Part shown: in pieces, positions 48,068 to 62,529 of the stretch | Layout: each line of letters starts with the position of its first letter | Numbering within the stretch: the first letter of the stretch is position 1 | Assembly (NCBI RefSeq): GCF_006345805.1 | Contig: NC_043007.1 | Coordinates: forward strand, 42,470,001 to 42,534,000 | Source: Octopus sinensis | Taxonomy: Eukaryota | Direction of reading: 5' to 3' | Length of the DNA stretch: 64,000 nucleotides | The notes under the pieces: model-generated | The model's database searches: none | What the model was told of the DNA's origin: nothing | What the model saw: the letters and a program-made list of their open reading frames with translations, nothing else | Program-made: the position numbers and the translations under genes

Positions 48068-48590
48068 CAAAAACTGTCTTCCCTCTTCTTCTTTCATTTA
48101 CCTATTAAAAATAAAGCATAAAAGGAATGTATCCAGACCAGAATTAACTTCCCAATACCATTTTAGTTTTTTTTATTCAGTTTCTTTCAAGGATTTTGGT
48201 ATTTTTTTTCCTTATCTACAAGATTTATCAAAGTTTCATTGCTCAACATATCAGCAAGAGAAAGAAGTTCAATAAGGAAGCCTTCAACCTTTGAGGTTAA
48301 TCCCTCACACTCTTTTCAAAGGTTCTTCCCCTCCCCTACGAACTGGTTAAATTTTCAATGAAACAAACTTTTAACAGAAAAGTACTTTCAGCCTGGTTGT
48401 ACAAGAGAAATAAACACCAAATCAACATTGATATATCTCAGTTGCCTTAAACCGCAGAAACTACCAACGGTTTGTCGAGAAGAAGGTGTGTCATTATACA
48501 AGACCCTACCTCCATTTTCTGTGCTGCTTTTGTTTTCTTCTTGTTTTGTTATTTTTCTTTTATTGTTTGGGTCTTTTTTTTTTGTTGCTT

Positions 48591-48817
48591 TTAGTTAGTC
48601 TGACGTACTGGAAACATCAAAACTTTAGCGTGCATGAAAGACAAATCAGGAAGAGTCTGCAGTATTACAGTAGCTTCCTGACTCAAGTGCTCATCTGATG
48701 TGTGTCCTCTCTTCACGGTCGTCGACTTGGTGTTGGCTAACATGTCCTCAAGGGGCTGCATTGGCTTGAAAGAAGGTAATGGCTTCAAAGGGCCACCTAG
48801 CAGTTCGGACTCAAACA
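48591..48817 (-). CDS. AFTPH: Aftiphilin terminal coding exon (V-FESELLGG...EHLSQEATVILQTLPDLSFMHAKVLMFPVRQTN*)
   Basis: Pyrimidine-rich acceptor cttttag|TG, phase 1. EHLS.EA..V...LPDL.FMHAKVLMFP is the recalled aftiphilin C-terminal signature. Confidence 0.92.
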
Positions 48818-49399
48818 CTAAAAAGACAAGAGAAAATGAGAAGAAAAGCATTTTTTTTTTATTCATATAATTGTCAACTATAAAAATGGAGTGAATTCTA
48901 AATGCATCCATTACACAATTTACTCAAGTTGTTATAGATGAGCAGGCAACATGCAGGTTCAAGTTCAACAGAAGCACAATCTAGACAAACTGATGATTGA
49001 GCAAATAGCTGAGTGTTTAATTCAAACAATTTACCAAAACATTCCCGATTGTCATTAGTTTATGATAATACAACAGAACAAATGTCACCACTAGTACAGG
49101 ACCCAGTATTGAGAGGATTCCTAAGAAACAAAATGAGTATATTGCAGAACAAACAATTAGAAATACATTGGCCGAATCACTGAAGTGATATTTAATTACA
49201 GCTTTTTACATCCTGAGTTCAAATACCAGGGGTTAAAAAAACAAGTACCAGTCAATTACTGGAGATGTACATCACTATTCAGTAACAAGAAGATGCCAAA
49301 TAGCATTTATCTATGGAAGTTTACAGGTACTGTATTTGAAAGAATATACAACATAGGCACTCATTTGTATTATGTTGTCTGTAAAAAAAAAGCTACTGA

Positions 49400-49620
49400 T
49401 CTGTTACAGTGTTCAGAAACAACTACATACAGCAGTTGATGTGTTGCAGTGGACAGCAACAGCTATATACTGCAGTAGACATAATCAACTGCAAACTGCA
49501 GTTGATGTACTGCAGTAAGCACCTAAAGCTAAATACTGCAGCCAATGTGTTGCAGTGGATACTGCTGCTGATGTGTTGCAAGTAATATGCTATTACAGTT
49601 AAAATGCTGCAATGGACATG
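49400..49620. repeat. Degenerate minisatellite (gcagttgatgt(g/a)(t/c)tgcagtggac-like units)
   Basis: About 8 recurring tgcag-centred units. Confidence 0.65.
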
Positions 49621-49740
49621 TGGTAGTTAGTGTTTCCCTAGCTCTCACCCACAACTCATGCTAACAGTATTAACAATGTGAGTGAAAAAAGACCAATAAA
49701 TAGAGAATGAAAATCTGGGTGCTAGTCTAATCTGTGCAGA

Positions 49741-49792
<52 letters not shown>

Positions 49793-49795
<3 letters not shown>

Positions 49796-50352
49796 GCCCT
49801 GATGCAGTACCAGGCAGTGGCTCTTATGGCTTCTGATCTTAACTGATTGGAAGTGTTATCATGTACATTGTTTTGTCTTGGTATAAAAGATGGGCTACAG
49901 CAAATATTCTGCTCAATACCACAGATTTGCTTGTCAGTTGTTTGACCTTAACCAGTTGAGCATGTCCCTTAGTGGCTGATGATATGTGCATCTCTGATCA
50001 CGAGCAGAAGTAGTGGGGGAGCATCATAGCCATGTGTTGAGAAGGATTCTTTGGGGTTTGAATAATTCACCTCTGGAAACATGGGTGTTTCGTTCAACGT
50101 CCTTAAACAACCCTTATTCAGGGACCTTTTGAGCGGGATGGGTTACTCGATCTGAAGAAAATTCTAACTGGGCTCCACCTGCAAGGTCATGTGCTGTTTA
50201 TCTTGATATGAGATCACCATGTCGCGCACATATGGTTGTGATGCATGTGCCTGGTGTACCCTTATGAGATGGGTGGTCATGATGGGTATACTGGGCTTCG
50301 TATATTTTACCCCAGTGTCAATTTGATGGCATGCTCTGCTCACTCACTCAAT
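49793..50352. mobile_element. ~560-bp non-autonomous element bounded by (AAT)n; second copy at 51840-52623
   Basis: Two similar copies aatgccctgatgca..tcactcaataataat, both embedded in AAT repeats. Confidence 0.8.
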
Positions 50353-50386
50353 AATAATAATAACAACAACAATAACAATAACAATG

Positions 50387-50429
<43 letters not shown>

Positions 50430-50430
<1 letters not shown>

Positions 50431-51590
50431 CCTAAGTGCACAAGGCCTGAAATTTGGGGGGAAGGGGATTAGTCAATTATATTGATCCCAGTATTCCACT
50501 GGTACTTAATTTATTGACTCCAAAAGGATGAAAGGCAAAGTCGACTTCAGCAGAATTTGAATTCAGAACGTAAAGATGAAATGAAAGATGTTGGATGAAA
50601 TGCTTCTAAGCATTTCATCCAACATGCTAAAACTTTGCCAGTTTGCTGCCTGTATAATAATTCTTTCTACTAGAGAAATTTCTACCCCTGAAATTTTGGG
50701 GGGAGGGAACAATTTGATTACATCAACTCCAGTGCTCGACTGATAATCATTTTACTAACCTCAAGATGAAATGCCACTAAGGAAGTGGGTAAGTCAATTA
50801 CATTGACCTCAGTGCTCAACTGATACTTATTTTATCAACCCTGAAAGGATGAAAAGCAAAGTCAACCTCACCGGAATTTGAACTCAGAGAATAAAGACAG
50901 ACAAAATGCTACTTTTGCCTGGCAAGGAAATGATTCTGCTCGTTCACCACCTTAATAATAATAATAATAATAATAATGATGATGATAATAATAATGATCC
51001 TTTCTACTATAGACACACAGCTTGAAATTTTGGAAGAGAGGTCAGTCAATTACATTGACCCCAGTAATTATTTTATTGACCCTGAAAGGATGGAAGACAA
51101 AAATAAACTTAGTGGAATTTGAACTCAGAACATAAATAACCAGAAGAAATGCTTCTAAGCATTTCATCCAACATGCTAAGAACTTTGCCAGTTTGCTGCC
51201 TGTATAATAATTCTTTCTACTAGAGGTATTTATACCCCTGAAATTTTGAGGGGAGGGAATAATTTGATTACATCAACTCCAGTGCTCAACTGATAATCAT
51301 TTTACCAACCTCAAAAGGATGAAAGGCAAAGTCAACCTTGGCAGCATTTGAACTCAGAATGTAAGAAACATAAAGAGCTGAATAATAATGGTTTTAAATT
51401 TTGGTACGGGGCCAGCAATTTTAGGGGAGCAAGTAAGTTAATTGTATTGACCCAAGTAGTTTATTTATCAACCCCAAAAGGATGAATGGCAAAGTTGATC
51501 TCTGAGTCCAAATTCTGCTGAGATAGATCAACTTTGCCTTTCATCCTTACAGGGTTCATAAAATAAGTACCAGCTGAGCAGTAAGTTAAT
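50430..51590 (-). mobile_element. Head-to-tail pile-up of about 5 Meta-type SINEs with a local duplication
   Basis: Repeated aaaggatgaaaggcaaagtc..tttgaactcag blocks; 50597-50764 is nearly identical to 51146-51314. Confidence 0.85.
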
Positions 51591-51995
51591 GTAGTAGTAG
51601 TAGTAGTAGTAGTAATAATGATAATTTTCCTATTTAAAAATTTTTCCTTCTTTCCTTTTTTTCTTTCTTCCCCTTTTTTTCTACTACATGACTTTTAAAT
51701 GAACAACTTGGTGCATTTATTCTCATGGCCTACCAATGTATACAATGAGTTTCTTTGCCATAGGTGTCAGGAAGACACTTGGCAAGAAATGGAAACAAAA
51801 TTGAAAGAAGAGGATAATGAGAGTAATGATAATAATAATAAATGCCCTGATGCAATACCAGGCACTGGCTCTCATGGCTACTGATCTTAACTAATTGGAA
51901 GTATTATCATGTACATGTTTTGTCTTGGTATAAAAGATGGGCTACAGCAAATATTCTTAGTACCACAGATTTGCTTGTCATATGTTTGACCTTAA

Positions 51996-52215
51996 CCCTT
52001 TGGTGTTCAGATTACTCTGTTAAATGTAATACTTTTTCACTCAAATTGTTTTGAATTAATCATGCATTATCTTCTAGCTTTGAGGTTTCAGTGATGTGAT
52101 TGTTTATTTTTAGCATGGCATTGTAGGTTAGGTGTAAGAGACTAGATATTGCCAGTGTGAATATAAAATATTTAGAATATTTGGGCCAGATATGGCCAGT
52201 TTAAACACCAAAGGG
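51996..52215. mobile_element. piggyBac-like MITE nested in the second AAT-bounded element
   Basis: TTAA|CCCTTTGGTGTT...AACACCAAAGGG|TTAA; the sister copy shows the empty TTAA site (gaccttaaccag, ~49944-49955). Confidence 0.9.
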
Positions 52216-53269
52216 TTAACCAATTGAGCATGTCCCTTGGTGGCTGATGTTATATGCATCTCTGATCACATGCAGAGGTAGTGGGAGAGCATCACAGCCA
52301 TGTGTTGAAAGGAATTCTTTGGGGTTTGGATGATTCACCTTTGAAAATATGGGCGTTTCATTCAATATCCTTAAACAAATTTTATTCAGGGACCTTTTGA
52401 GCAGAATGGGCTCCTCGACCTGAAGAAAATTCTAATTGGGCCCCACCTGCTAGGTCATGCACTGTTTATCTTGATATGAGATCATCATGTCATGCACATA
52501 TGGTTGTGATGCATGTGCCTGGTGTACCCTTATCAGACGGATAGTCATGATGGGTATATTGCCCTTCATATATTTGTACCCCAGTGTCATTTTGATGGCA
52601 TGAGTTGCTCTCTCACTCAATAATAATAAAAATTTTAGCACAAGGCTAGTGGTTTTATAGGAAAGATGTTAATCAATTGCATTGATAACCAAAGTGGTAT
52701 CAACCCCAAAAGGATGAAGGTAAAGTCAACCTTAGCAGAATTTGAACTCAGAACATAAAGAATTGAAAGAGATGTCACTGAGCATTTTGTCTGATGTGCT
52801 AATAATTCTATCAATTTGCCACCTTAATGATGATGATGATGATAAATCCTTTCTACTATAGGTACAAGGCCTGAAACTTTTTAGTAGAGAGGGCCAGTCA
52901 ATTACATTGATGAAAGGCAAAATTCACCAAAGTAGAATTCGAACTCATATAAAGCCAGAGGCTCAAAGCATTCTGTCCAGCATGCTAACAATTCTGCCAA
53001 CTCACCACCATCATCACTACCATCATCATTTTTACAGTTACTTTTCCATGCTTATTGCTCACTTTTGCAGTTGTAAAAATGATAATGTTGGTGATGATAA
53101 TAGCCTGATTTTAATTCCCTATATGTTGCAATTATTTCTTTTTATATTTGTAATACTGTCAGTGTAGGGGGGGCAGGGGGAGGGGGAGAGACAAAGAGCA
53201 AGCCAGTAAGGTTAGGAGGAAAATGGCACAAAAGCAACTAACTCTGAAAAACAGAGGCCACTGTAGTAA

Positions 53270-53552
53270 AAGGTAAGGTAAAGATGCTCTTCAATCAAGA
53301 ATGACCATGGGATTACACCTAGAAAGTTACCCTCTGAGGCACAAGTACAAGCAAGGTTGTTTATGGAAGACCAGCAGTCGCCCATACATACCAGCCTCCC
53401 CTCTCCACAGCAGTGATGTTGCAACTCATTTCTACAGCTGAGTGAACTGGAGCAACACAAAATAAAGTGTCTTGCTCAAGAGCACAACACACAGCCTGTT
53501 CCAGGAGTCAAACTCACTACCTCATGATTGTAAACCCGACCCTGTAATCACT
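53270..53552 (-). mobile_element. SINE-like element
   Basis: tttctacagctgagtgaactggagcaa..aagtgtcttgctcaagagcacaacac core-like segment. Confidence 0.6.
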
Positions 53553-54232
53553 GTGGTAATACTAGTAGAAATAGTGTAGTGAAGGGACAACACATCTGTG
53601 GGCTAGACGTTGGAGTACACTGGCCAGTGACTTCATGCCAATTAGTCAGTTGATCTTTTTCTCTGAGAGAGATCTAAACTCTGTAAAGAGTAGGTAGAAG
53701 TATGTTCTGACCTTGAACAAACTGTAAGATAACAGAGAGATTCTCAACGAGAAAAAAAATCTCAAAATCAATAAGCCAGCTTACTGAGTCATTTGGCATG
53801 TTCAATATAGAAGTCAAAGCTTTTTAGAAAATGTTCTAATAGCTTTAAAATAGCGATTATATGAGTCAAGGAGGGAATTCTTTTCATAATTAAATTGGTC
53901 AATATCAAAATTAAATCAACCTCAATAAAATTTAGTGATGTTTTAAAAATCAAGACCATAAAAACAAGCAAGAAGGATAATATGTAGTCAGACTGTTCTA
54001 AGCAGCAGTCAAATCTCTCTCAACAAATACATTTCCCATTTTTTAAATCATAACCATAGGATTCAGTGAGGAATCTCTTTGTAGGCACTCAACAGAAAAA
54101 CTTCCTTCAATATCTTACCCATTGTCTTTAACCATTTTTCTTTTTCTGCGATATTTCTAATGAAATTTCTGCTCATGTGTTTGAATTAAAATTGAAAATA
54201 ATCAAGAATTTGGAGAAATTTAATAAACTAAC

Positions 54233-54272
<40 letters not shown>

Positions 54273-55193
54273 ATTATTATTAAAACTGTTTATAAACAAA
54301 AGGTTCTTACATAAAATTGTAATAAGAGATTTTGATTTAAGTAAAGCTCATTAAAAGAGGCATTTTTGAATCACAGAATCAAAGCAGGGTCTCAGGAGGG
54401 TTGATATCAAAATGGTTATTTTAGCATATTTTTTTTTAATTAGGACATTTCCCACAGCAAAAAACAGAATGGCTTTTGCTAGAGACACACAATGACTATT
54501 CTGTTCATTTAATTATATACAACATAAATGTAGTTGTACATAAGCAAAACTGGCCAACGACTTTGTGTCTAAATTTTTCTCTATGGCTTTTTGAAACATC
54601 AAAAGATCATCTATCAGGCTCTTAAGTAGGTCTAACCACATCTGACAAGTATTGTGGAACATATGTATACAAAAAACTGTGGCTACTATATAATTCACTT
54701 CATAAACTAACCTAAAAACTGTACTGTCTTAAAAAATTAGCATTTGATAAAAAGAATTTATAATTACTCTTCAAAAATGAAACTGAAAAAAGAATACCAA
54801 ATGAAAGTTTCAAAAAATCCCACCAAGTTAACCTTTTAAAAAACCAAAGGTTTATCTTATCACCATTTTCCAAAACAAAACTTAGAAGTATTTTTTCCCT
54901 AGAATTCTGTTGAACACAATCTGAGGGCAACAAATAAACCTCATTCACATGCATTATGCAATGGAAAGCCTGAAGAAGTCACAATCAACCAAACCAGCAT
55001 GCAAGGTGTTCACACTGAATTGAGTTAAGAGCAGTAAGCTAACTGTTTATAATTACACACACACACATATTATATACACACACATACACATAAAGAAATT
55101 ACTTGAGTGACAAGCAGAACAGGTTTCTCAAGTGAGTTAAGATCAGAAATAAAGAAATGAAGGAGAATGAGAAATCAAGCAGAGGATCCTTAC

Positions 55194-55208
55194 CCCAGTC
55201 CAGGTCAT
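55194..55208 (-). CDS. AFTPH: Candidate 15-nt aftiphilin microexon (D-DLDW-V)
   Basis: On -: ccttattttccctccatcccag|ATGACCTGGACTGGG|gtaagg; phase 1-1, matching both flanking exons; no stop. Confidence 0.65.
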
Positions 55209-55604
55209 CTGGGATGGAGGGAAAATAAGGTGAATTCAGTAAAAGGATTATTGATTTGACAAACAATCAAAATACTTGGATGTTTAATTCCAGAAAGCTC
55301 AATATAGTATCATAAGGACAAATTAAATTTATGATGAAATTAGCAAACATTCACACAGTGAACCAAAATGTGTTTGTAATTTTTCCTTTTTTTTTCTCTC
55401 AGATATCATAAATTCAAACATCAATCATAATGTCTCATGTTTGTTTTGCAATAGGTGGCATCATAGTTTTGACATGTCTGCAAGTTGTATATTGCCATTT
55501 ACCTCAGTCCTACATGACACTGACTATAAGGTCCAACATCCCTTTGTTCAAACCGCACACACTATTTCAATATATTTTCTTGATCTTCTTCTGGCACAGA
55601 TAAT

Positions 55605-55806
55605 CATAATTTTGGTTTCAAATTCAGGGAAGGGGTAAGTAAATTACACTGACCCAAGTGCTTGACTGGTACTTATTTTATCGACCCTGAAAGGATGAAA
55701 GGCAAAGTCAACCTAGGCGGAATTTGAACAGAGAATGTAAAGATGGACGAAATGTCATTATGCATTTTGCCCAGAATGCTAACAATTCTGCCACCTCATT
55801 GCCTTT
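55605..55806 (-). mobile_element. Meta-type SINE
   Basis: ttatcgaccctgaaaggatgaaaggcaaagtcaacc..attctgcca. Confidence 0.8.
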
Positions 55807-56285
55807 CAGATAATAGTAGCTTTGAATTCTAACATTGGCAAAAATCCCTGAGATTAAATCTATCTCAGCTCTTGACTGGCCCTTTATTTTATTGATGTTG
55901 GGGTGGGGGTGGGGGGTGAAGGATAAGATTGATCTCAACAGAAACTTGATTTAAAACCTAATGGATCATAACTAAATGCCACAAGGCATTTTATCCAGTA
56001 CTTATGATTTTACTGATACACCACCCAAACAGTTAATTACAATTTTGTCAGATTCTTTTATTTGCTTCTCTTACAATCATCATATTAAACATATTGAAGA
56101 AAATGCTAATACTTCACATCCATTAAGTGATATGCTCACCAGTAAATTCCTGTTGCACCACGTTCTCACTTTTAGCTGTCTACTCCATAAAGACTGCTTC
56201 AGTCCTCAATCAAACATTGCAAGAATCCACTCAACTAAGATCTATCATATGAGTGTGTGTCTATGTGAAACTGAGATGTTCGTGC

Positions 56286-57110
56286 CTATATAATATTATA
56301 TATATAAAACTCAACTTGTGTGTCTGTGTGTGTGTCTGTGTGTTTAACTTCCCGGCACATCTCCTCCTAGCCAACAAATCGTAGAACCACCAAAAATGGG
56401 TCACTTAAAGTTTAGGTGAATGAAAATTGAACTGCGCTATTTCTGTTCCGAAATTCATCTCGCAAGTGCAAAAATCGATAATGTGTTTGTTTAGGCCTTA
56501 TCCCATACATTGAATAGTGAACTTTACTCAGTCAGCTGTTTGACGTGAACTGTGTTTACCACGCGTGAAAACATGCGTAAATTGCATGAAAAATAAAAAA
56601 TCAAGATATAAAAACGAATCGCCGTAAACATTGTAGAAATTCGGCAAAGAAATGAATTTTCAGGATGTAGCCTGGAGGGTTTTTTTCGTATTAATCGTGT
56701 GGACTTTGTGAACACATACCAATTGTTTTCATAATATTTTTAATGCTTTGAATTAAATGTGACCATTTTGCATTGAGTCTGCAGTTTGAATCACTTTAAT
56801 CAAATTTTAGCAGGCCAGATTTTTGATCATCATGATACATCGCCAGCGACTCCCTGAAACTTTCCCCTGAAATCCCCGTTGAGAAATACTGATCTAAAAG
56901 AATAATTCAACAATGCAATTATTTGATCAACAAAAATTTATGAAACGCTTCTACATACTTCCTATTGAGGAAATGGAACACATAAGCACAAAAATAGAGG
57001 GCATTAAATGCTTGATTTTAAAACCAAAATGACTGAATTTTGATTGAACTTCATCCAAGTTTAGCTTAATTTGCGCGTGCATAGAACGCACGAACCAGGC
57101 AATACTGCTA

Positions 57111-57111
<1 letters not shown>
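56286..57111 (+). mobile_element. Non-autonomous Helitron
   Basis: 5' tatatataaaac..(gtct/gtgt)n; 3' hairpin cgtgc..gcacg then atactgCTAG|T, the same 3' end as the 38910 element. Confidence 0.75.
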
Positions 57112-57177
<66 letters not shown>

Positions 57178-57181
57178 TATA

Positions 57182-58053
57182 CAGGGTGTGGTGAATAAAC
57201 TGTCATATAAATTACGCAAAAATGAAAATAACACTGACATCTCGTTTTAACAGATATATTTACCTAAATTACATAAAAATATCTTGAAATACTAAAGAGT
57301 AAATTCATTCAATAAAATCGCCATTGGCTTCAACCATGGCCTCCAGAGAACTTCAGAATCTCCTGCAACCCTTCTGGCTGGTCTCCTTGTTTAAGTTGGT
57401 GAATGCTACCATAATCCTTACCTTCACTTTATCTTTGGTGTTACAAGGAGGTTTGTTGGTCTCTCGCTTAACTGTGCCCCACACATAATAATCAAGGGGG
57501 TTGCAGTCTGGGGAGTTAGCTGGCCAGATGTTAGGGGTGATGTGGTTGCAGGAATTGTCTGACAGCCATAACTGGTTTCTCCTGCTTGTGTGGTATGGCA
57601 GTGTCCTGTTGCTAGACATAGGGTTGTCTAGCAGCCATCCTCTTCACCCAGGGCAGGCACTTGATGTAGGCCTCCATGCTGAGTCTGAGGCCACATAGGA
57701 AGATGACTGGAAGCATAACATTGCCATCACTAGTGATTACTCCAAACACCATGATGTTGACTGGATGTTTGATTTTTATCACTGTTGGTACATGTCTGCA
57801 GATCACACTGTCCTCAGATTGACACCCAAATACTCTGAAATGTTTGTATTGGAGCTTCCAACGCAAATGCCAAGTAGTACAGCATGTTGTTTCCAAATTT
57901 CTGGCAGAGTGAATTGTGTCGTGGAGCTGTTTTTCTCACAGATGGTACCCAACTGACCCTACTATACTGTGTAGTCGACAAAATCAAAAACAAACAATGA
58001 GCATGCATGAAATTAAAAATACAAAATGGTGACAATTTACACATCGCACCCCG
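57182..58053 (-). mobile_element. Internally deleted Tc1/mariner (maT/DD37D-like) element
   Basis: TA-flanked TIRs cagggtgtggtgaataaactgtca / tgacaatttacacatcgcaccccg; transposase remnants KHPVNIMVFGVITSDG and WPANSPDCNPLDYYVWG. Confidence 0.9.
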
Positions 58054-58149
58054 TATATATAAAAATATACACATATATACATATATGTATAACAAACAAA
58101 AAATATGTATAGAGAAAATTAAATCTTTAACTGTAGAATTCACCTTTCA

Positions 58150-58352
58150 AAGTCAACAATTGTTTCTGTTGCATTTAGACAGAGAAAATATCATTGAAAT
58201 TAATATTTCAAGGTAATCAAAAATTAGCTAAATTCACCTTGAAACACATTTGAAATACATGTTAAATGCATATTTTTGGAAATGTTAATTTCAATGATAC
58301 TTTCTATATCTACACATGTTAATACAACAGAAACAATCATCAGCTGTGACTT
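58150..58352. repeat. Foldback/MITE-like inverted repeat
   Basis: tgtttctgttgcatt..atcattgaaattaatatttc pairs with gaaatgttaatttcaatgat..aatacaacagaaaca. Confidence 0.65.
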
Positions 58353-58608
58353 TCTCCAAACATATTTTGTTGTCTGATACTCTGAATTTCACGAAATTCT
58401 TCGAAATGATATATGGATCTATTTGTCATACACGAGGAATTACCTTGGACGGCTATTCTACTTGAATTTATTGATGTCCAATTGTTGGATATAGTTAACC
58501 AAATTCATTTAAAACTGAGTGCTTTATTGATATCTGCCTGGATTTTTTAATCCTATTTTTTACTTCTTATATATTTTGAGTGTGTGTGTGTGTGTGTGTG
58601 TACGTGCA

Positions 58609-58665
<57 letters not shown>

Positions 58666-58677
58666 ATATATATACAT

Positions 58678-59098
58678 AGGCGCAGGAGTGGCTGTGTGGT
58701 AAGTAGCTTGCTAACCAACCACATGGTACCGGGTTCAGTCCCACTGCGTGGCATCTTGGGCAAGTGTCTTCTGCTATAGCCACGGGCCGACCAATGCCTT
58801 GTGAGTGGATTTGGTAGACAGAAACTGAAAGAAGCCTGTCGTATATATGTATATATATATATGCAAGTGTGTTTGTTTGTTTGTGTGTCTGTGTTTGTCC
58901 CCCTAGCATTGCTTGACAACCGATGCTGGTGTGTTTATGTCCCCGTCACTTAGCGGTTCGGCAAAAGAGACCGATAGCATAAGTACTGGGCTTACAAAAA
59001 AAAGAATAAGTTCCGGGGTCGAGTTGCTCGATTAAAGGCGGTGCTCCAGCATGGCCGCAGTCAAATGACTGAAACAAGTAAAAGAGTAAAAGAGTATA
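58678..59098 (+). mobile_element. Young full-length CORE-like tRNA-derived SINE
   Basis: A-box tggctgtgtggt, B-box gggttcagtccc, (TA)/(TG) linker, tail aagtaaaagagtaaaagagt. Confidence 0.9.
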
Positions 59099-59238
59099 TA
59101 AGCAAGTTATTGATTTGTCTAACTTGCTTATCCCTACATTTACTTCTATACCCTCTCAAGTTTAAATCTCTTGAGCACTACCAAGTGTATTCTTTATTGA
59201 AAATATCTGATTCTCATCTATGAACTATATGTGCGTGT

Positions 59239-59590
59239 ATCATCATCATCATTTAACGTCCGTTTTCCATGCTAGCATGGGTTGGACAGTTTGACCGGGG
59301 TCTGGGAAACCAGGAGGCTGCACCAGGCTCCAGTCTGATCTGGCAGTGTTTCTACAGCTGGATACCCTTCCTAACGCCAACCACTCCGTGAGTGTAGTGG
59401 GTGCTTTTTACGTGCCACTGGCACGGATGCCAGTCAAGGTGGTGCTGGCATCAGCCACGTTCAGCTGGTGTTTTTTATGTGCCACCAGCATGGGTATCAC
59501 AACTACAATTTCCATTTGATTTTTATTTTTATGTACTTGACTCAATAGGTCTCCTCAAGCACAGCAGGTCGCCCTACGATCCAAGGTACC
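59239..59590 (-). mobile_element. RTE-tailed SINE
   Basis: (CAT)n tail plus body matching 12014-12350. Confidence 0.85.
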
Positions 59591-61023
59591 CTATGATCCA
59601 AATATATATATATATTTAATGCTGGTGTTAAACAACTGAGACATCATGTCATCATTCATATATAAACACTTTAATATCGGGTGATCTTAAGACAGTTGCT
59701 CTTATATTAAAAGAGTTAACAAAAAGATTTCACCTTACTATTAATGAATTTGGTATTTTTACAAAGCTCCCCATTAACCAATTGATCGCAATTTTGACCT
59801 TTATAGAAATTATTGTCATATGTTGGTACAAGCATGTTATAGTCTCAGGCATAGAGACAGATATGTGGTTAAGAAGTTCACTTCACAACAACAGGGCTTG
59901 GGGTTCAGTCCCACTCTACAACACCTTTGGTCACTATCTTCTACTGCCTCAAATCAATGCCTCATGAGTGAATTTGATAGACAGAAACTGTGGGAAGCCT
60001 CAGTGTGTATGTGTATGTGTGCATGTGTGTGTGTGGACATATGCTCGCATGTATGTGTGTTACTATCTACACTCATGCACCATAGGCAGCAGTACTGCCA
60101 TTCCCTGGCAACAAATCATCTGCTCATCTCACTCTGAAAACATACAAAACAAAAGATCCTCTGACCCCAAAACAGAATAGGGACAGTAACAGGAAGGGAT
60201 TCTGGCTGCAAAAACAACGTCCCACAATACACTTGTCCAACTCATGCCAGCATGGAAAAAAGGAATGCAAAGCAAATAAATCAATCAATACTTTAATGTA
60301 AGGAACACACATACACAAACATAGATGAATGTGTGTAAATATACATGTATATACACATACATGCACATGTAAATACATACATATGTACACACATATATAT
60401 ACTCAATCATAATTTAATCTAAAATAATTTTAACATAATCTAAAACAAACACAAAATGTAGCGATGCAGATTTATAGAAACTAAAGAGCATATAAAAAAA
60501 AAAAGTAACATATACAACACACATCTCAAAAAACCCATCTCAAAACCTTATGTTCTCACCAGCTGGTGTGATATCAATCAAACTTTTGTTTGTTTATATT
60601 ATATTTGTCTTTTATAGAAGTGGAAGTGTGTGGCTTAGTAATTAGGAGTGTTGGACTTATGATCGTAAAATTGTGGTTTTAGTCCACTCAGCTGGCAAAA
60701 ATGAGTAATCCTGTGGCAGACCAGTATCCCGTCCAAGTGGAGAATTCACATGCCACAGGAACTGGCCCTATGAATCTACATGGCTTTGGAAGGATCTTCA
60801 TCCTTTTCTTTTTTTTTTTATTCTATTACAGTAAGGTAACAAGGTAATGCTGTTAATAGGATAAGTATGGAGGAAGATGAAAGTGAAATAAAAATAAAAT
60901 AAAAAAGGGGGAAGATGAAAGAAATAAGATAAAGTAAAACAATATAAAATACAATAAAGCTAGTAGTAAAAAAGTTTAATTTCTTCAATAGGTTAATGGA
61001 TGTAAATTTTTTTTTGTTCAGGG

Positions 61024-61054
<31 letters not shown>

Positions 61055-62448
61055 CACACACACACTCATTCACACATGTACATAATTTATATTTTTATTT
61101 TACTTCCCCTCATCTTCCTCCCTGCTAATGACATTACCCTCTTATCTCATTAAAATCTAACCATGTTCCCTGAGATACACCAACACATTGCCCTTGTCTC
61201 TTATACTTTACTTTTTAATAACTAACAGAGGCAGAGGTTTCTTTTACCATTTTATTTTGGGAACTTTAGAGGCTTTTGTTTTTGTTTTCTGGAGGGGTTT
61301 TTTTTGTTGCTAATTTGGCATGTCAAATGTATTTTGTTTTGCTTTTTTTGTGGTGGGTAACTACAAGTCCTTCATACTAATAATCACTCCAGTGAAGCAA
61401 AAAAAAAAAAAATCCTGCTTGGAATTTAGACTGAAGGAAACAGAGTAATGTGTACTTTAGAGGAATGTAACAGAAAGGTTTGAACTTATAGCCTGGCTAT
61501 AATATTGAATAGTCCCTTACTTTATCCTGAAAACAATTATACTTCCCATTTCCCCATTATTTTAAGCATATATATATATATATATGGTGAAATCAGCAAT
61601 CTGAGCAAACTGGTGGTATGTGTCAGCCAAAATTAATCAATAAAAGAGTTTGCAGTAGAGTTTAATGAGCTAATTTGTCAAGAGGAATGAAAAAGTCAAA
61701 CATTTGCCCAACATCCAAGACAAAAACAGAGACAGAGAATTTATAAAAGTGTTGTCTCACTCACTCACACACACACAAACACACATCCCTTTAATTAGGT
61801 GATGACTATTTTTCAGCAAAACAAATCAAGGCACTTGCCTAAAAGTAGTAATAGCTATTTTAAGTTTAGAAGGGCTGAAACACAGAATTTAACTTCTCAC
61901 CTAGTGAGAAAGGGGAAGGAGAGAGAGAGAGAGTGTGTGTGTGTGTATATATATATACACACACACATACATGCATATATAAATACATATCTACGTACAT
62001 TCGTATATACATTAATACACACACACATATAAATTGAATAAAATAAGTAGGCAATCGACAGTACTGACAATGCTAAATTCAATTATATTTGATTGATGCA
62101 AAGAAGTTAAAAAAATTCAGTGACATAAATGTCTCCACAAATGGTGTGTGTGTGTGTGTGTTTATAACTGAATAAATGAAACAGACATCTGACAATACTC
62201 TGAATTAAATTTGATATTGATTGATACCGGGAAGTTAAAAATTAAATTACATATAAATGAAATACCATCTTACACACATATAAAAAAATAATCTAATAAT
62301 TCGCTATTTGGGCAGATCTTATAACAACAAACATATAGTCACACATTTTTGCTTTTGCACACTCCAAAAACAAGAAAATAAATGAATAAAATAAAATAAT
62401 ATTTTTGAAATTCTTTAGAAATTGAACAATGACAGCAAAAGAACTAAC

Positions 62449-62529
62449 CTCCAGTTTTTGATATCGTAGTTTCAGGAGAGTCTTTCACCACAAGGAAGTC
62501 CAAGTCCAAAGTATTTGCCGATGCTGCCG
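62449..62529 (-). CDS. AFTPH: Aftiphilin exon (xAASANTLDLDFLVVKDSPETTISKTG-)
   Basis: ttttcag|...G|gttagt, 81 nt, phase 1-1. LDLDF clathrin-box-like motif matches the recalled aftiphilin LLNLDF segment. Upstream exons lie beyond the window. Confidence 0.85.

What the first reader, a model, noticed from the sequence alone, without database searches (positions are those of the whole stretch)
55194..55208. Candidate 15-nt microexon in aftiphilin adding an acidic-aromatic DDLDW peptide
Seen: inside a ~13.6-kb interval there is a clean pyrimidine tract + CAG, 15 nt, and a strong GTAAGG donor, in exactly the phase (1-1) of the flanking exons. Inclusion gives ...SKTG-DDLDW-VFESELL, just after the LDLDF clathrin-box-like motif. 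Known: microexons are often neural and enriched in vesicle-trafficking genes, and aftiphilin binds clathrin and AP adaptors through short acidic-aromatic motifs. Inference: a possible neural switch adding a binding motif, easily missed by annotation.
Basis: partly seen in the sequence, partly recalled or inferred. Interest (0 to 1): 0.75.

Follow-up and report, generated by a model that had tools for sequence, protein, structure and literature searches.

The report
Ancient mollusc microexon in octopus aftiphilin
A 15-base optional exon in the octopus gene for the vesicle-sorting protein aftiphilin is real, already annotated and shared with snails, limpets, scallops and oysters; it adds five amino acids that likely act as a switchable docking site, but its partner and its tissue are still unknown.

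Summary
The 15-nt exon is at 55194-55208 (minus strand). It is the best of 2110 candidate AG..GT pairs in the intron, and 0 of 200 resampled introns match its score. It was not missed by annotation: Octopus sinensis RefSeq isoforms X1/X3 carry DDLDW and X2/X4 skip it; O. vulgaris also has both forms. The same cassette, read DEWDW (EWDW in an oyster), occurs in gastropods and bivalves, with include/skip pairs in 9 mollusc species counting both octopuses. The brachiopod Lingula has an acidic-aromatic 7-aa cassette at the same site. No insert was seen in 11 cuttlefish-type proteins or 125 vertebrate-type tails. Neural specificity could not be tested. The acceptor lacks most SRRM/eMIC hallmarks, but two Rbfox motifs lie downstream. 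No canonical clathrin or AP-ear motif is matched in 13 junction peptides. An Atg8-binding LIR core is matched in 12 of 13 and in Lingula, but not in octopus. Verdict: a real, old alternative microexon that likely tunes a binding site; a new member of a known kind.

The parts
55194..55208 (-). 15-nt cassette microexon, phase 1-1, adds D-D-L-D-W (residues 874-878 of the 953-aa isoform X1)
55209..55274 (-). Acceptor (CAG) with pyrimidine tract and a 64-nt AG-free zone; no TGC in its last 30 nt
55188..55193 (-). Donor GTAAGG; read-through would give DDLDW-GK..., as a Patella caerulea gene model does (DEWDW-GK)
54998..55003 (-). TGCATG (Rbfox-type motif), 190 nt downstream of the microexon
   Evidence: a motif match, not a test of function
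54948..54953 (-). Second TGCATG, 240 nt downstream of the microexon
   Evidence: a motif match, not a test of function
62449..62529 (-). 81-nt upstream exon carrying LDLDF; aligns with the optional 28-aa LLNLDFF exon of vertebrates and is skipped in an O. bimaculoides model
48591..48817 (-). Last coding exon of aftiphilin (VFESELL...LPDLSFMHAKVLMFP...stop); supplies the V-F after the insert
48818..62448 (-). 13,631-nt intron removed in the skipping isoform; rich in repeats

Best explanation
This is an alternatively spliced, frame-keeping microexon of aftiphilin, shared across three mollusc classes, whose inclusion puts an acidic-aromatic peptide into the protein's C-terminal tail, where it likely acts as one more weak docking site for the clathrin/adaptor coat, probably in only some tissues. 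Shown: the exon, its phase, annotated include and skip isoforms, and the counterpart in gastropods and bivalves (about 0.97). Shown: the tail holds three related hydrophobic-Asp-aromatic words (F-D-W, L-D-F, L/W-D-W), each on its own optional exon, so splicing can change their number. Inferred: the added word raises avidity for a coat partner, the clathrin terminal domain or an AP ear (about 0.4 for this partner class, about 0.85 that it binds some partner). Inferred: inclusion is the minor form in most samples and is enriched in neural or muscle tissue, helped by the downstream Rbfox sites (about 0.55).
For: Isoform pairs differing only by this insert: O. sinensis, O. vulgaris, Pecten, Argopecten, Saccostrea echinata (4 aa), Pomacea, Gigantopelta, Littorina, Patella vulgata. 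Inclusion is also seen in Aplysia, Haliotis rufescens, Biomphalaria and two unnamed proteins. D-W followed by V-F is invariant in 13 of 13 junction peptides, while the residues just upstream diverge. Frame-shifted Pecten isoforms X9/X10 differ by five residues too; combining both frames implies 12 of 15 bases identical to the octopus exon (my inference). The insert lies outside the Pfam PF15045 region (729-789), which overlaps the predicted HEATR5-binding helices (PMC10798858, passages). It falls in a segment with pLDDT under 50 and no helix in a low-confidence model of the limpet isoform. Aftiphilin binds AP-1 and is in a HEATR5B/gamma-synergin complex (PMC9988951, PMC10690479, passages); multiple weak motifs and avidity are general in this system (PMC5694535, passages). 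Only 1 of 19 assembly-derived mollusc proteins reaching the last exon has the insert (not independent samples). Two TGCATG lie within 400 nt downstream, against 0.7-0.8 per kb in the gene; downstream TGCATG marks brain, muscle and heart microexons in mammals (PMC4317164, passages).
Against: None of the clathrin box, W-box, WxxFx[DE], FxDxF, DP[FW], DL[LF] or a gamma-ear-like pattern is matched in any of 13 junction peptides. A LIR core fits 12 of 13 and Lingula better than any coat motif. No tissue data were obtained. The eMIC signature is mostly absent: nearest TGC 137 nt upstream, no CTCT in 300 nt upstream, and an acceptor stronger than both flanking acceptors; the AG-free zone (64 nt) is only slightly longer than the last exon's (58 nt). 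Two TGCATG in 400 nt is a modest excess (about 0.3 expected). The insert is absent from 11 cuttlefish-type proteins, 3 Ylistrum proteins, 7 oyster-like assembly proteins and single models of several other molluscs; this may be missing annotation or true loss.
Confidence: 0.5

Rival explanations
1. The microexon switches on an Atg8/GABARAP-binding LIR (acid-acid-aromatic-x-x-aliphatic), tying AP-1/HEATR5 carriers to autophagic membranes; octopus keeps a weakened or repurposed version.
For: W-D-W-V, completed by the next exon's V and preceded by D-E, fits the core [WFY]xx[LIV] (pattern recalled) in 12 of 13 mollusc junction peptides. The Lingula cassette at the same site, E-E-F-D-I-L-S, fits it with different letters. 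Octopus has a GABARAP-like exon.
Against: Octopus has Leu at the aromatic position, so the core is not met in the species at hand. The core is short and common; the upstream LDLDF exon already gives one (F-L-V-V). No aftiphilin-Atg8 link appeared in two paper searches (3 papers, 1 listed, passages read: 8 papers, listings only).
Confidence: 0.25
2. The peptide is a tryptophan-acidic motif for a non-clathrin partner: the kinesin-1 light chain TPR domain or the delta-COP mu-homology domain.
For: [LMW]-[DE]-W is met in 13 of 13 and W-x(1-6)-[WF] in 13 of 13. W-acidic motifs have a Trp flanked by D/E, often with L/M at -2 (PMC5450233, passages), and octopus has L-D-W. Acidic Trp motifs bind delta-COP (PMC7145657, passages; the spacing pattern is recalled).
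Against: Strict [LM][DE]W[DE] is met in 0 of 13. The Lingula cassette has no Trp. The di-Trp pattern is loose, and the N-terminal half already has four WxxF/W words. Octopus has a gadkin/AP1AR-like exon, so no AP-1-to-kinesin link is evidently missing.
Confidence: 0.15
3. The exon is spliced at low level everywhere and its peptide has no specific partner (spacer, charge or near-neutral variation).
For: Absent from many mollusc protein sets; octopus changed two of five residues; no tissue pattern is shown.
Against: DEWDW is identical in all 11 gastropod and scallop junction peptides examined, while the upstream flank varies freely; frame is kept at 15, 12 and 21 nt.
Confidence: 0.08
4. The exon is a chance intronic match or an annotation artefact.
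For: No raw junction read was seen here.
Against: 0 of 200 resamples reach its score; it is annotated in two octopus species and has counterparts in ten other named mollusc genera.
Confidence: 0.02

Closest known systems
Neural microexons regulated by SRRM3/4 or the Srrm234 eMIC domain (PMC8797185, passages)
   Same: 3-27 nt size class, frame-keeping, long AG-free zone; the genome has an SRRM_C (PF15230) exon above the cut-off.
   Different: No UGC near the acceptor, no UCUC tract, acceptor not weak by my matrix; neural inclusion untested.
RBFOX-enhanced microexons of brain, muscle and heart (PMC4317164, passages)
   Same: Downstream TGCATG motifs, long flanking introns, insert in a likely disordered region.
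   Different: Motif conservation and binding untested; those exons tend to have weak splice sites, while this one scores high.
Vertebrate AFTPH cassette exon (mouse exon 8, 81 nt, in frame, changes in motoneurons; PMC4601534, passages)
   Same: Same gene, same tail, in-frame optional motif exon.
   Different: The vertebrate 28-aa optional exon aligns with the octopus upstream 81-nt LDLDF exon, not with the microexon (that it is the mouse exon 8 is my inference); 0 of 125 vertebrate-type tails held carry a matching insert.
Lingula anatina aftiphilin 7-aa cassette (RefSeq X1/X3 versus X2)
   Same: Same site after the LDLDF exon; acid-acid-aromatic-Asp-hydrophobic chemistry; a donor read-through model exists.
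   Different: 21 nt rather than 15, no Trp; orthology versus convergence not resolved; not seen in 2 Owenia, 1 Capitella or 3 Tubulanus proteins.

Membership tests
Alternative coding microexon | Exon of 3-27 nt with canonical splice sites | tested here: met
   15 nt, CAG and GTAAGG
Alternative coding microexon | Both include and skip isoforms exist, frame kept | tested here: met
   RefSeq X1/X3 versus X2/X4; pairs in 9 mollusc species. These are annotation records; no raw junction read was seen.
Aftiphilin (AFTPH) | Pfam PF15045 region, FDW-x-x-x-GLxNPL block and C-terminal LPxLSFM block | tested here: met
   PF15045 at 729-789, 29.1 bits over a 22.5 cut-off; alignment with named aftiphilins
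eMIC/SRRM-dependent neural microexon | Neuron-enriched inclusion | not testable with these tools
   Run labels are coded and contigs showed no junction
eMIC/SRRM-dependent neural microexon | Long AG exclusion zone | tested here: inconclusive
   64 nt, against 27, 36, 52 and 58 nt at four other acceptors of the gene
eMIC/SRRM-dependent neural microexon | UGC close to the 3' splice site and a UCUC-rich tract | tested here: not met
   Nearest TGC at -137; no CTCT in 300 nt upstream
eMIC/SRRM-dependent neural microexon | eMIC-type regulator encoded in the genome | tested here: met
   PF15230 match above cut-off, G000:C11337
eMIC/SRRM-dependent neural microexon | Inclusion depends on the eMIC protein | not testable with these tools
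   Needs knockdown or minigene
Canonical clathrin terminal-domain motifs | Clathrin box L-Phi-x-Phi-[DE], W-box PWxxW or DL[LF] | tested here: not met
   0 of 13 junction peptides (definitions from PMC5694535)
Canonical AP ear motifs | WxxFx[DE], FxDxF, DP[FW] (alpha ear) or a gamma-ear-like FG[DEP]Phi word (recalled) | tested here: not met
   0 of 13 junction peptides
LIR / Atg8-interacting motif | Core [WFY]xx[LIV] after acidic residues (pattern recalled) | tested here: not met
   Not met in octopus; met in the other 12 of 13 and in Lingula
LIR / Atg8-interacting motif | Direct binding to Atg8-family proteins | not testable with these tools
   Needs a binding assay
Kinesin light chain W-acidic motif | Trp flanked by D/E on both sides with L/M at -2 | tested here: not met
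   0 of 13 strict matches; octopus has L-D-W but Val at +1 (PMC5450233)
delta-COP di-tryptophan motif | Acidic W-x(1-6)-[WF] (spacing recalled) | tested here: inconclusive
   13 of 13 match, but the pattern is loose; the primary paper was not held

The most novel reading that the evidence does not exclude
A lophotrochozoan-ancestral neural microexon, kept from brachiopods to molluscs, switches an Atg8/GABARAP-binding LIR onto the AP-1/HEATR5 scaffold aftiphilin, coupling Golgi-endosome carriers to autophagic membranes in neurons. Octopus recoded the key aromatic residue, so the same switch would now serve another partner.
Probability: 0.12. Interest if true: 0.72.

Novelty: new member of a known kind. 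Interest (0 to 1): 0.42.

Why it matters
Conserved microexons are well studied in vertebrates and insects and rarely shared between phyla (PMC8797185 and bioRxiv 10.64898/2026.09.05.749416, passages). The 2026 study's species list, in the passage I saw, names one mollusc, O. bimaculoides. This one is shared by cephalopods, gastropods and bivalves, which split roughly 500 million years ago (date recalled), and possibly by a brachiopod. It gives a clean natural experiment: a five-residue on/off motif with natural variants (DEWDW, EWDW, DDLDW, EEFDILS) in the poorly understood tail of an AP-1 accessory protein, testable in Aplysia or Biomphalaria neurons. The isoform itself is already in public annotation. 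What my searches did not find in print is its conservation or any role.

Tried and rejected
RNA evidence: the look-up of sequencing runs listed 24 runs, none on record as RNA ('no RNA holder listed'), with coded sample names, so tissue could not be assigned. Contigs of 4 of those runs laid on 48400-55400 were swamped by intronic repeats and showed no joint at either microexon junction among the rows shown. In one run the last-exon contig ends two bases past the acceptor, which fits the skip or unspliced path but proves nothing about absence. The upstream junction was not examined with reads. Complex prediction of octopus residues 862-893 with a 117-aa animal GABARAP stand-in from a metagenome contig (97% identical to the octopus exon): no verdict, score 0.14 against a mark of 0.34, controls not folded, peptides untested by that tool; not counted for or against. 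No clathrin, AP-ear, KLC or delta-COP complex was predicted (one job only). The idea that the motif replaces a missing gadkin was dropped: an AP1AR-like exon exists. PDB sequence search gave no aftiphilin structure. The Atlas search gave only sub-0.9 aftiphilin-type leads. Pfam found nothing in 112 of 159 listed open frames scanned (those below about 48 kb). Three primary papers were not held and were not seen: Torres-Mendez 2019, Hirst 2005 and Suckling 2015. No supplements were read; bioRxiv supplements are closed, and the exon tables of the 2026 20-species splicing study and of the 2019 and 2022 eMIC papers could list this exon.

Full report
Observation. On the minus strand, 55208-55194 is a 15-nt segment between a pyrimidine tract ending CAG and a GTAAGG donor. 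It lies in a 13,631-nt intron between an 81-nt exon (62449-62529) and the last coding exon (48591-48817). Both junctions are phase 1, and inclusion inserts DDLDW between SKTG and VFESELL. With simple splice-site matrices of my own (generic frequencies, recalled) it ranks first of 2110 AG..GT pairs of 3-51 nt, 14.3 against 10.7 for the next. None of 200 order-3 Markov resamples of the intron reached that score, and it was the only such candidate on both strands of 144 kb.

Gene and annotation. The last exon is 100% identical to an Octopus sinensis protein named 'A-agglutinin anchorage subunit' in RefSeq, on a contig of the same length as the window's. It carries Pfam PF15045 at 729-789 and aligns with named aftiphilins. 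Of 5 O. sinensis isoforms, X1 (953 aa) and X3 (943) include DDLDW, X2 (948) and X4 (938) skip it, and X5 is frame-shifted upstream. One of 5 O. vulgaris models includes it, and 0 of 3 O. bimaculoides models do. So the exon was not missed by annotation, though the gene's RefSeq name hides its identity.

Conservation. At the same site, isoform pairs differ by DEWDW in Pecten (4 of 8 full-length isoforms include it), Argopecten (4 of 8), Pomacea, Gigantopelta, Littorina and Patella vulgata, and by EWDW in Saccostrea echinata. Aplysia, Haliotis rufescens, Biomphalaria and two unnamed proteins also carry DEWDW. A Patella caerulea model reads DEWDW-GK, the same donor read-through that the octopus sequence would give. 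Frame-shifted scallop isoforms also differ by five residues, and the two frames together imply 12 of 15 bases identical to the octopus exon (inference). Against wider reach: no insert in 11 cuttlefish-type proteins reaching the last exon, 3 Ylistrum proteins, 7 oyster-like assembly proteins, or single models of chiton, Lottia, Mactra, Mytilus, Solemya, Sinanodonta, Elysia, Physella, Bulinus, Babylonia and H. asinina. Single models cannot show absence. Outside molluscs, a profile search of 1.84 billion representatives (best 150 of 1214 hits listed) led to Lingula anatina, where X1 and X2 differ by EEFDILS at this site and X3 reads through after it. No insert was seen in 2 Owenia, 1 Capitella, 3 Tubulanus or 11 amphioxus proteins, nor in 125 vertebrate-type tails. 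Whether the Lingula exon is orthologous or convergent is open.

Anatomy of the tail. Mapping the isoforms onto the window plus 80 kb upstream shows two exons of 34 and 64 nt that are used one or the other (both 3n+1; using neither gives the truncated X5), then the 81-nt exon, the microexon and the last exon. The 64-nt exon carries the deeply conserved F-D-W block. The 81-nt exon carries L-D-L-D-F and aligns with the optional 28-aa vertebrate exon; mouse Aftph has an in-frame 81-nt exon 8 whose use changes in motoneurons (PMC4601534, passages). The microexon adds L/W-D-W. Three related words thus sit on three separately optional exons. The insert is outside the PF15045 region, which overlaps the helices predicted to bind HEATR5 (PMC10798858, passages). 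In an AlphaFold model of the limpet isoform (mean pLDDT 39.7, so weak) it lies in a segment with pLDDT under 50 and no secondary structure.

Regulation. Not measured. Only 1 of 19 assembly-derived mollusc proteins that reach the last exon has the insert, which fits a minor or restricted form, but these are not independent samples and tissues are unknown. The genome encodes an SRRM_C/eMIC-type exon. Of the eMIC-target hallmarks listed in PMC8797185 (passages), the AG-free zone is long (64 nt, against 27-58 at four other acceptors). The nearest TGC, however, is 137 nt upstream, there is no CTCT in 300 nt, and the acceptor is not weak. Two TGCATG lie 190 and 240 nt downstream, where about 0.3 would be expected; such sites promote microexon inclusion in mammalian brain, muscle and heart (PMC4317164, passages). 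I put neural or muscle enrichment at about 0.55.

Mechanism. Across 13 mollusc junction peptides the invariant part is acid-[W/L]-D-W-V-F. None matches the clathrin box, W-box, DL[LF], WxxFx[DE], FxDxF or DP[FW] (definitions from PMC5694535, passages) or a recalled gamma-ear pattern. A LIR core (recalled) is met in 12 of 13 and in Lingula, not in octopus. A strict kinesin W-acidic pattern is met in none (PMC5450233, passages), and a loose di-Trp pattern in all (PMC7145657, passages; spacing recalled). I commit to a weak, non-canonical coat-docking word that adds avidity (about 0.4). The grounds are that aftiphilin's partners reported in the passages read are AP complexes, GGA and HEATR5B, that the octopus word D-L-D-W copies the chemistry of the adjacent D-L-D-F, and that clathrin terminal-domain sites are more permissive than their consensus (PMC5694535, passages). 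The LIR reading (0.25) is the strongest rival and may describe the ancestral state. These steps are inferred; no binding was shown.

Literature. Searches for aftiphilin + microexon and AFTPH + microexon returned 0 papers. Searches on aftiphilin motifs and isoforms, octopus or mollusc microexons and aftiphilin with LIR or GABARAP showed no description of this exon in the listings. The 2026 20-species splicing preprint does not mention AFTPH in its main text (passages). Most subscription journals and all supplements were not seen.

Verdict. Real, annotated, and conserved across three mollusc classes; function inferred. It is a new member of a known kind (conserved alternative microexon in a trafficking adaptor), interest 0.42.

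Noticed in passing
G000:C11:42569629-42569662 and 42546721-42546784 (minus strand, upstream of the window): A 34-nt and a 64-nt exon are used one or the other (PAAAPVDMKAM versus VDIPPVQFDW...). The swap removes the most conserved FDW block of aftiphilin; cuttlefish-type proteins show the same two forms.
   Followed up: partly
window 62449-62529: The LDLDF exon is optional in many lineages: vertebrates, amphioxus, Owenia, Tubulanus, Aplysia, Gigantopelta and O. bimaculoides all have forms with and/or without it, suggesting a very old alternative exon.
   Followed up: partly
between the FDW exon and the LDLDF exon in relatives (P0060, P0011, P0149, P0190, P0199, P0340): Further short optional inserts at this other junction: VEEQ in frogs, a 10-aa insert in scallops, longer ones in abalone and amphioxus; a possible hotspot for new small exons.
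   Followed up: no
window 55194-55208 versus the LDLDF codons in 62449-62529: The octopus microexon's D-L-D-W codons match the upstream D-L-D-F codons at 9 of 12 bases (read); convergence or copying is untested.
   Followed up: no
P0242, P0265, P0292, P0146 (insect-type aftiphilins): A short A-A-W / A-G-A-W word sits at the end of the LDLD segment, near the microexon's position; could be a convergent Trp motif.
   Followed up: no
L010:1486-1665 (G000:C11337, minus strand): An exon matching SRRM_C (eMIC-type) above the Pfam cut-off.
   Followed up: partly
L023:1450-1620 (G000:C4, minus strand): A gadkin/AP1AR-like exon in octopus.
   Followed up: no
window 49800-53550 and around 55070: Intronic repeats with very high contig depth in all four laid runs; abundant repeat families.
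   Followed up: no
about 67400-69700 in window-extended coordinates (locus L002), minus strand: Broken open frames resembling a LINE-type reverse transcriptase inside the aftiphilin intron (resemblance judged by eye).
   Followed up: no
RefSeq names of P0003, P0031, P0067: Mollusc aftiphilins are often misnamed (A-agglutinin anchorage subunit, serine-rich adhesin, and the like), which hides these isoforms from name searches.
   Followed up: yes
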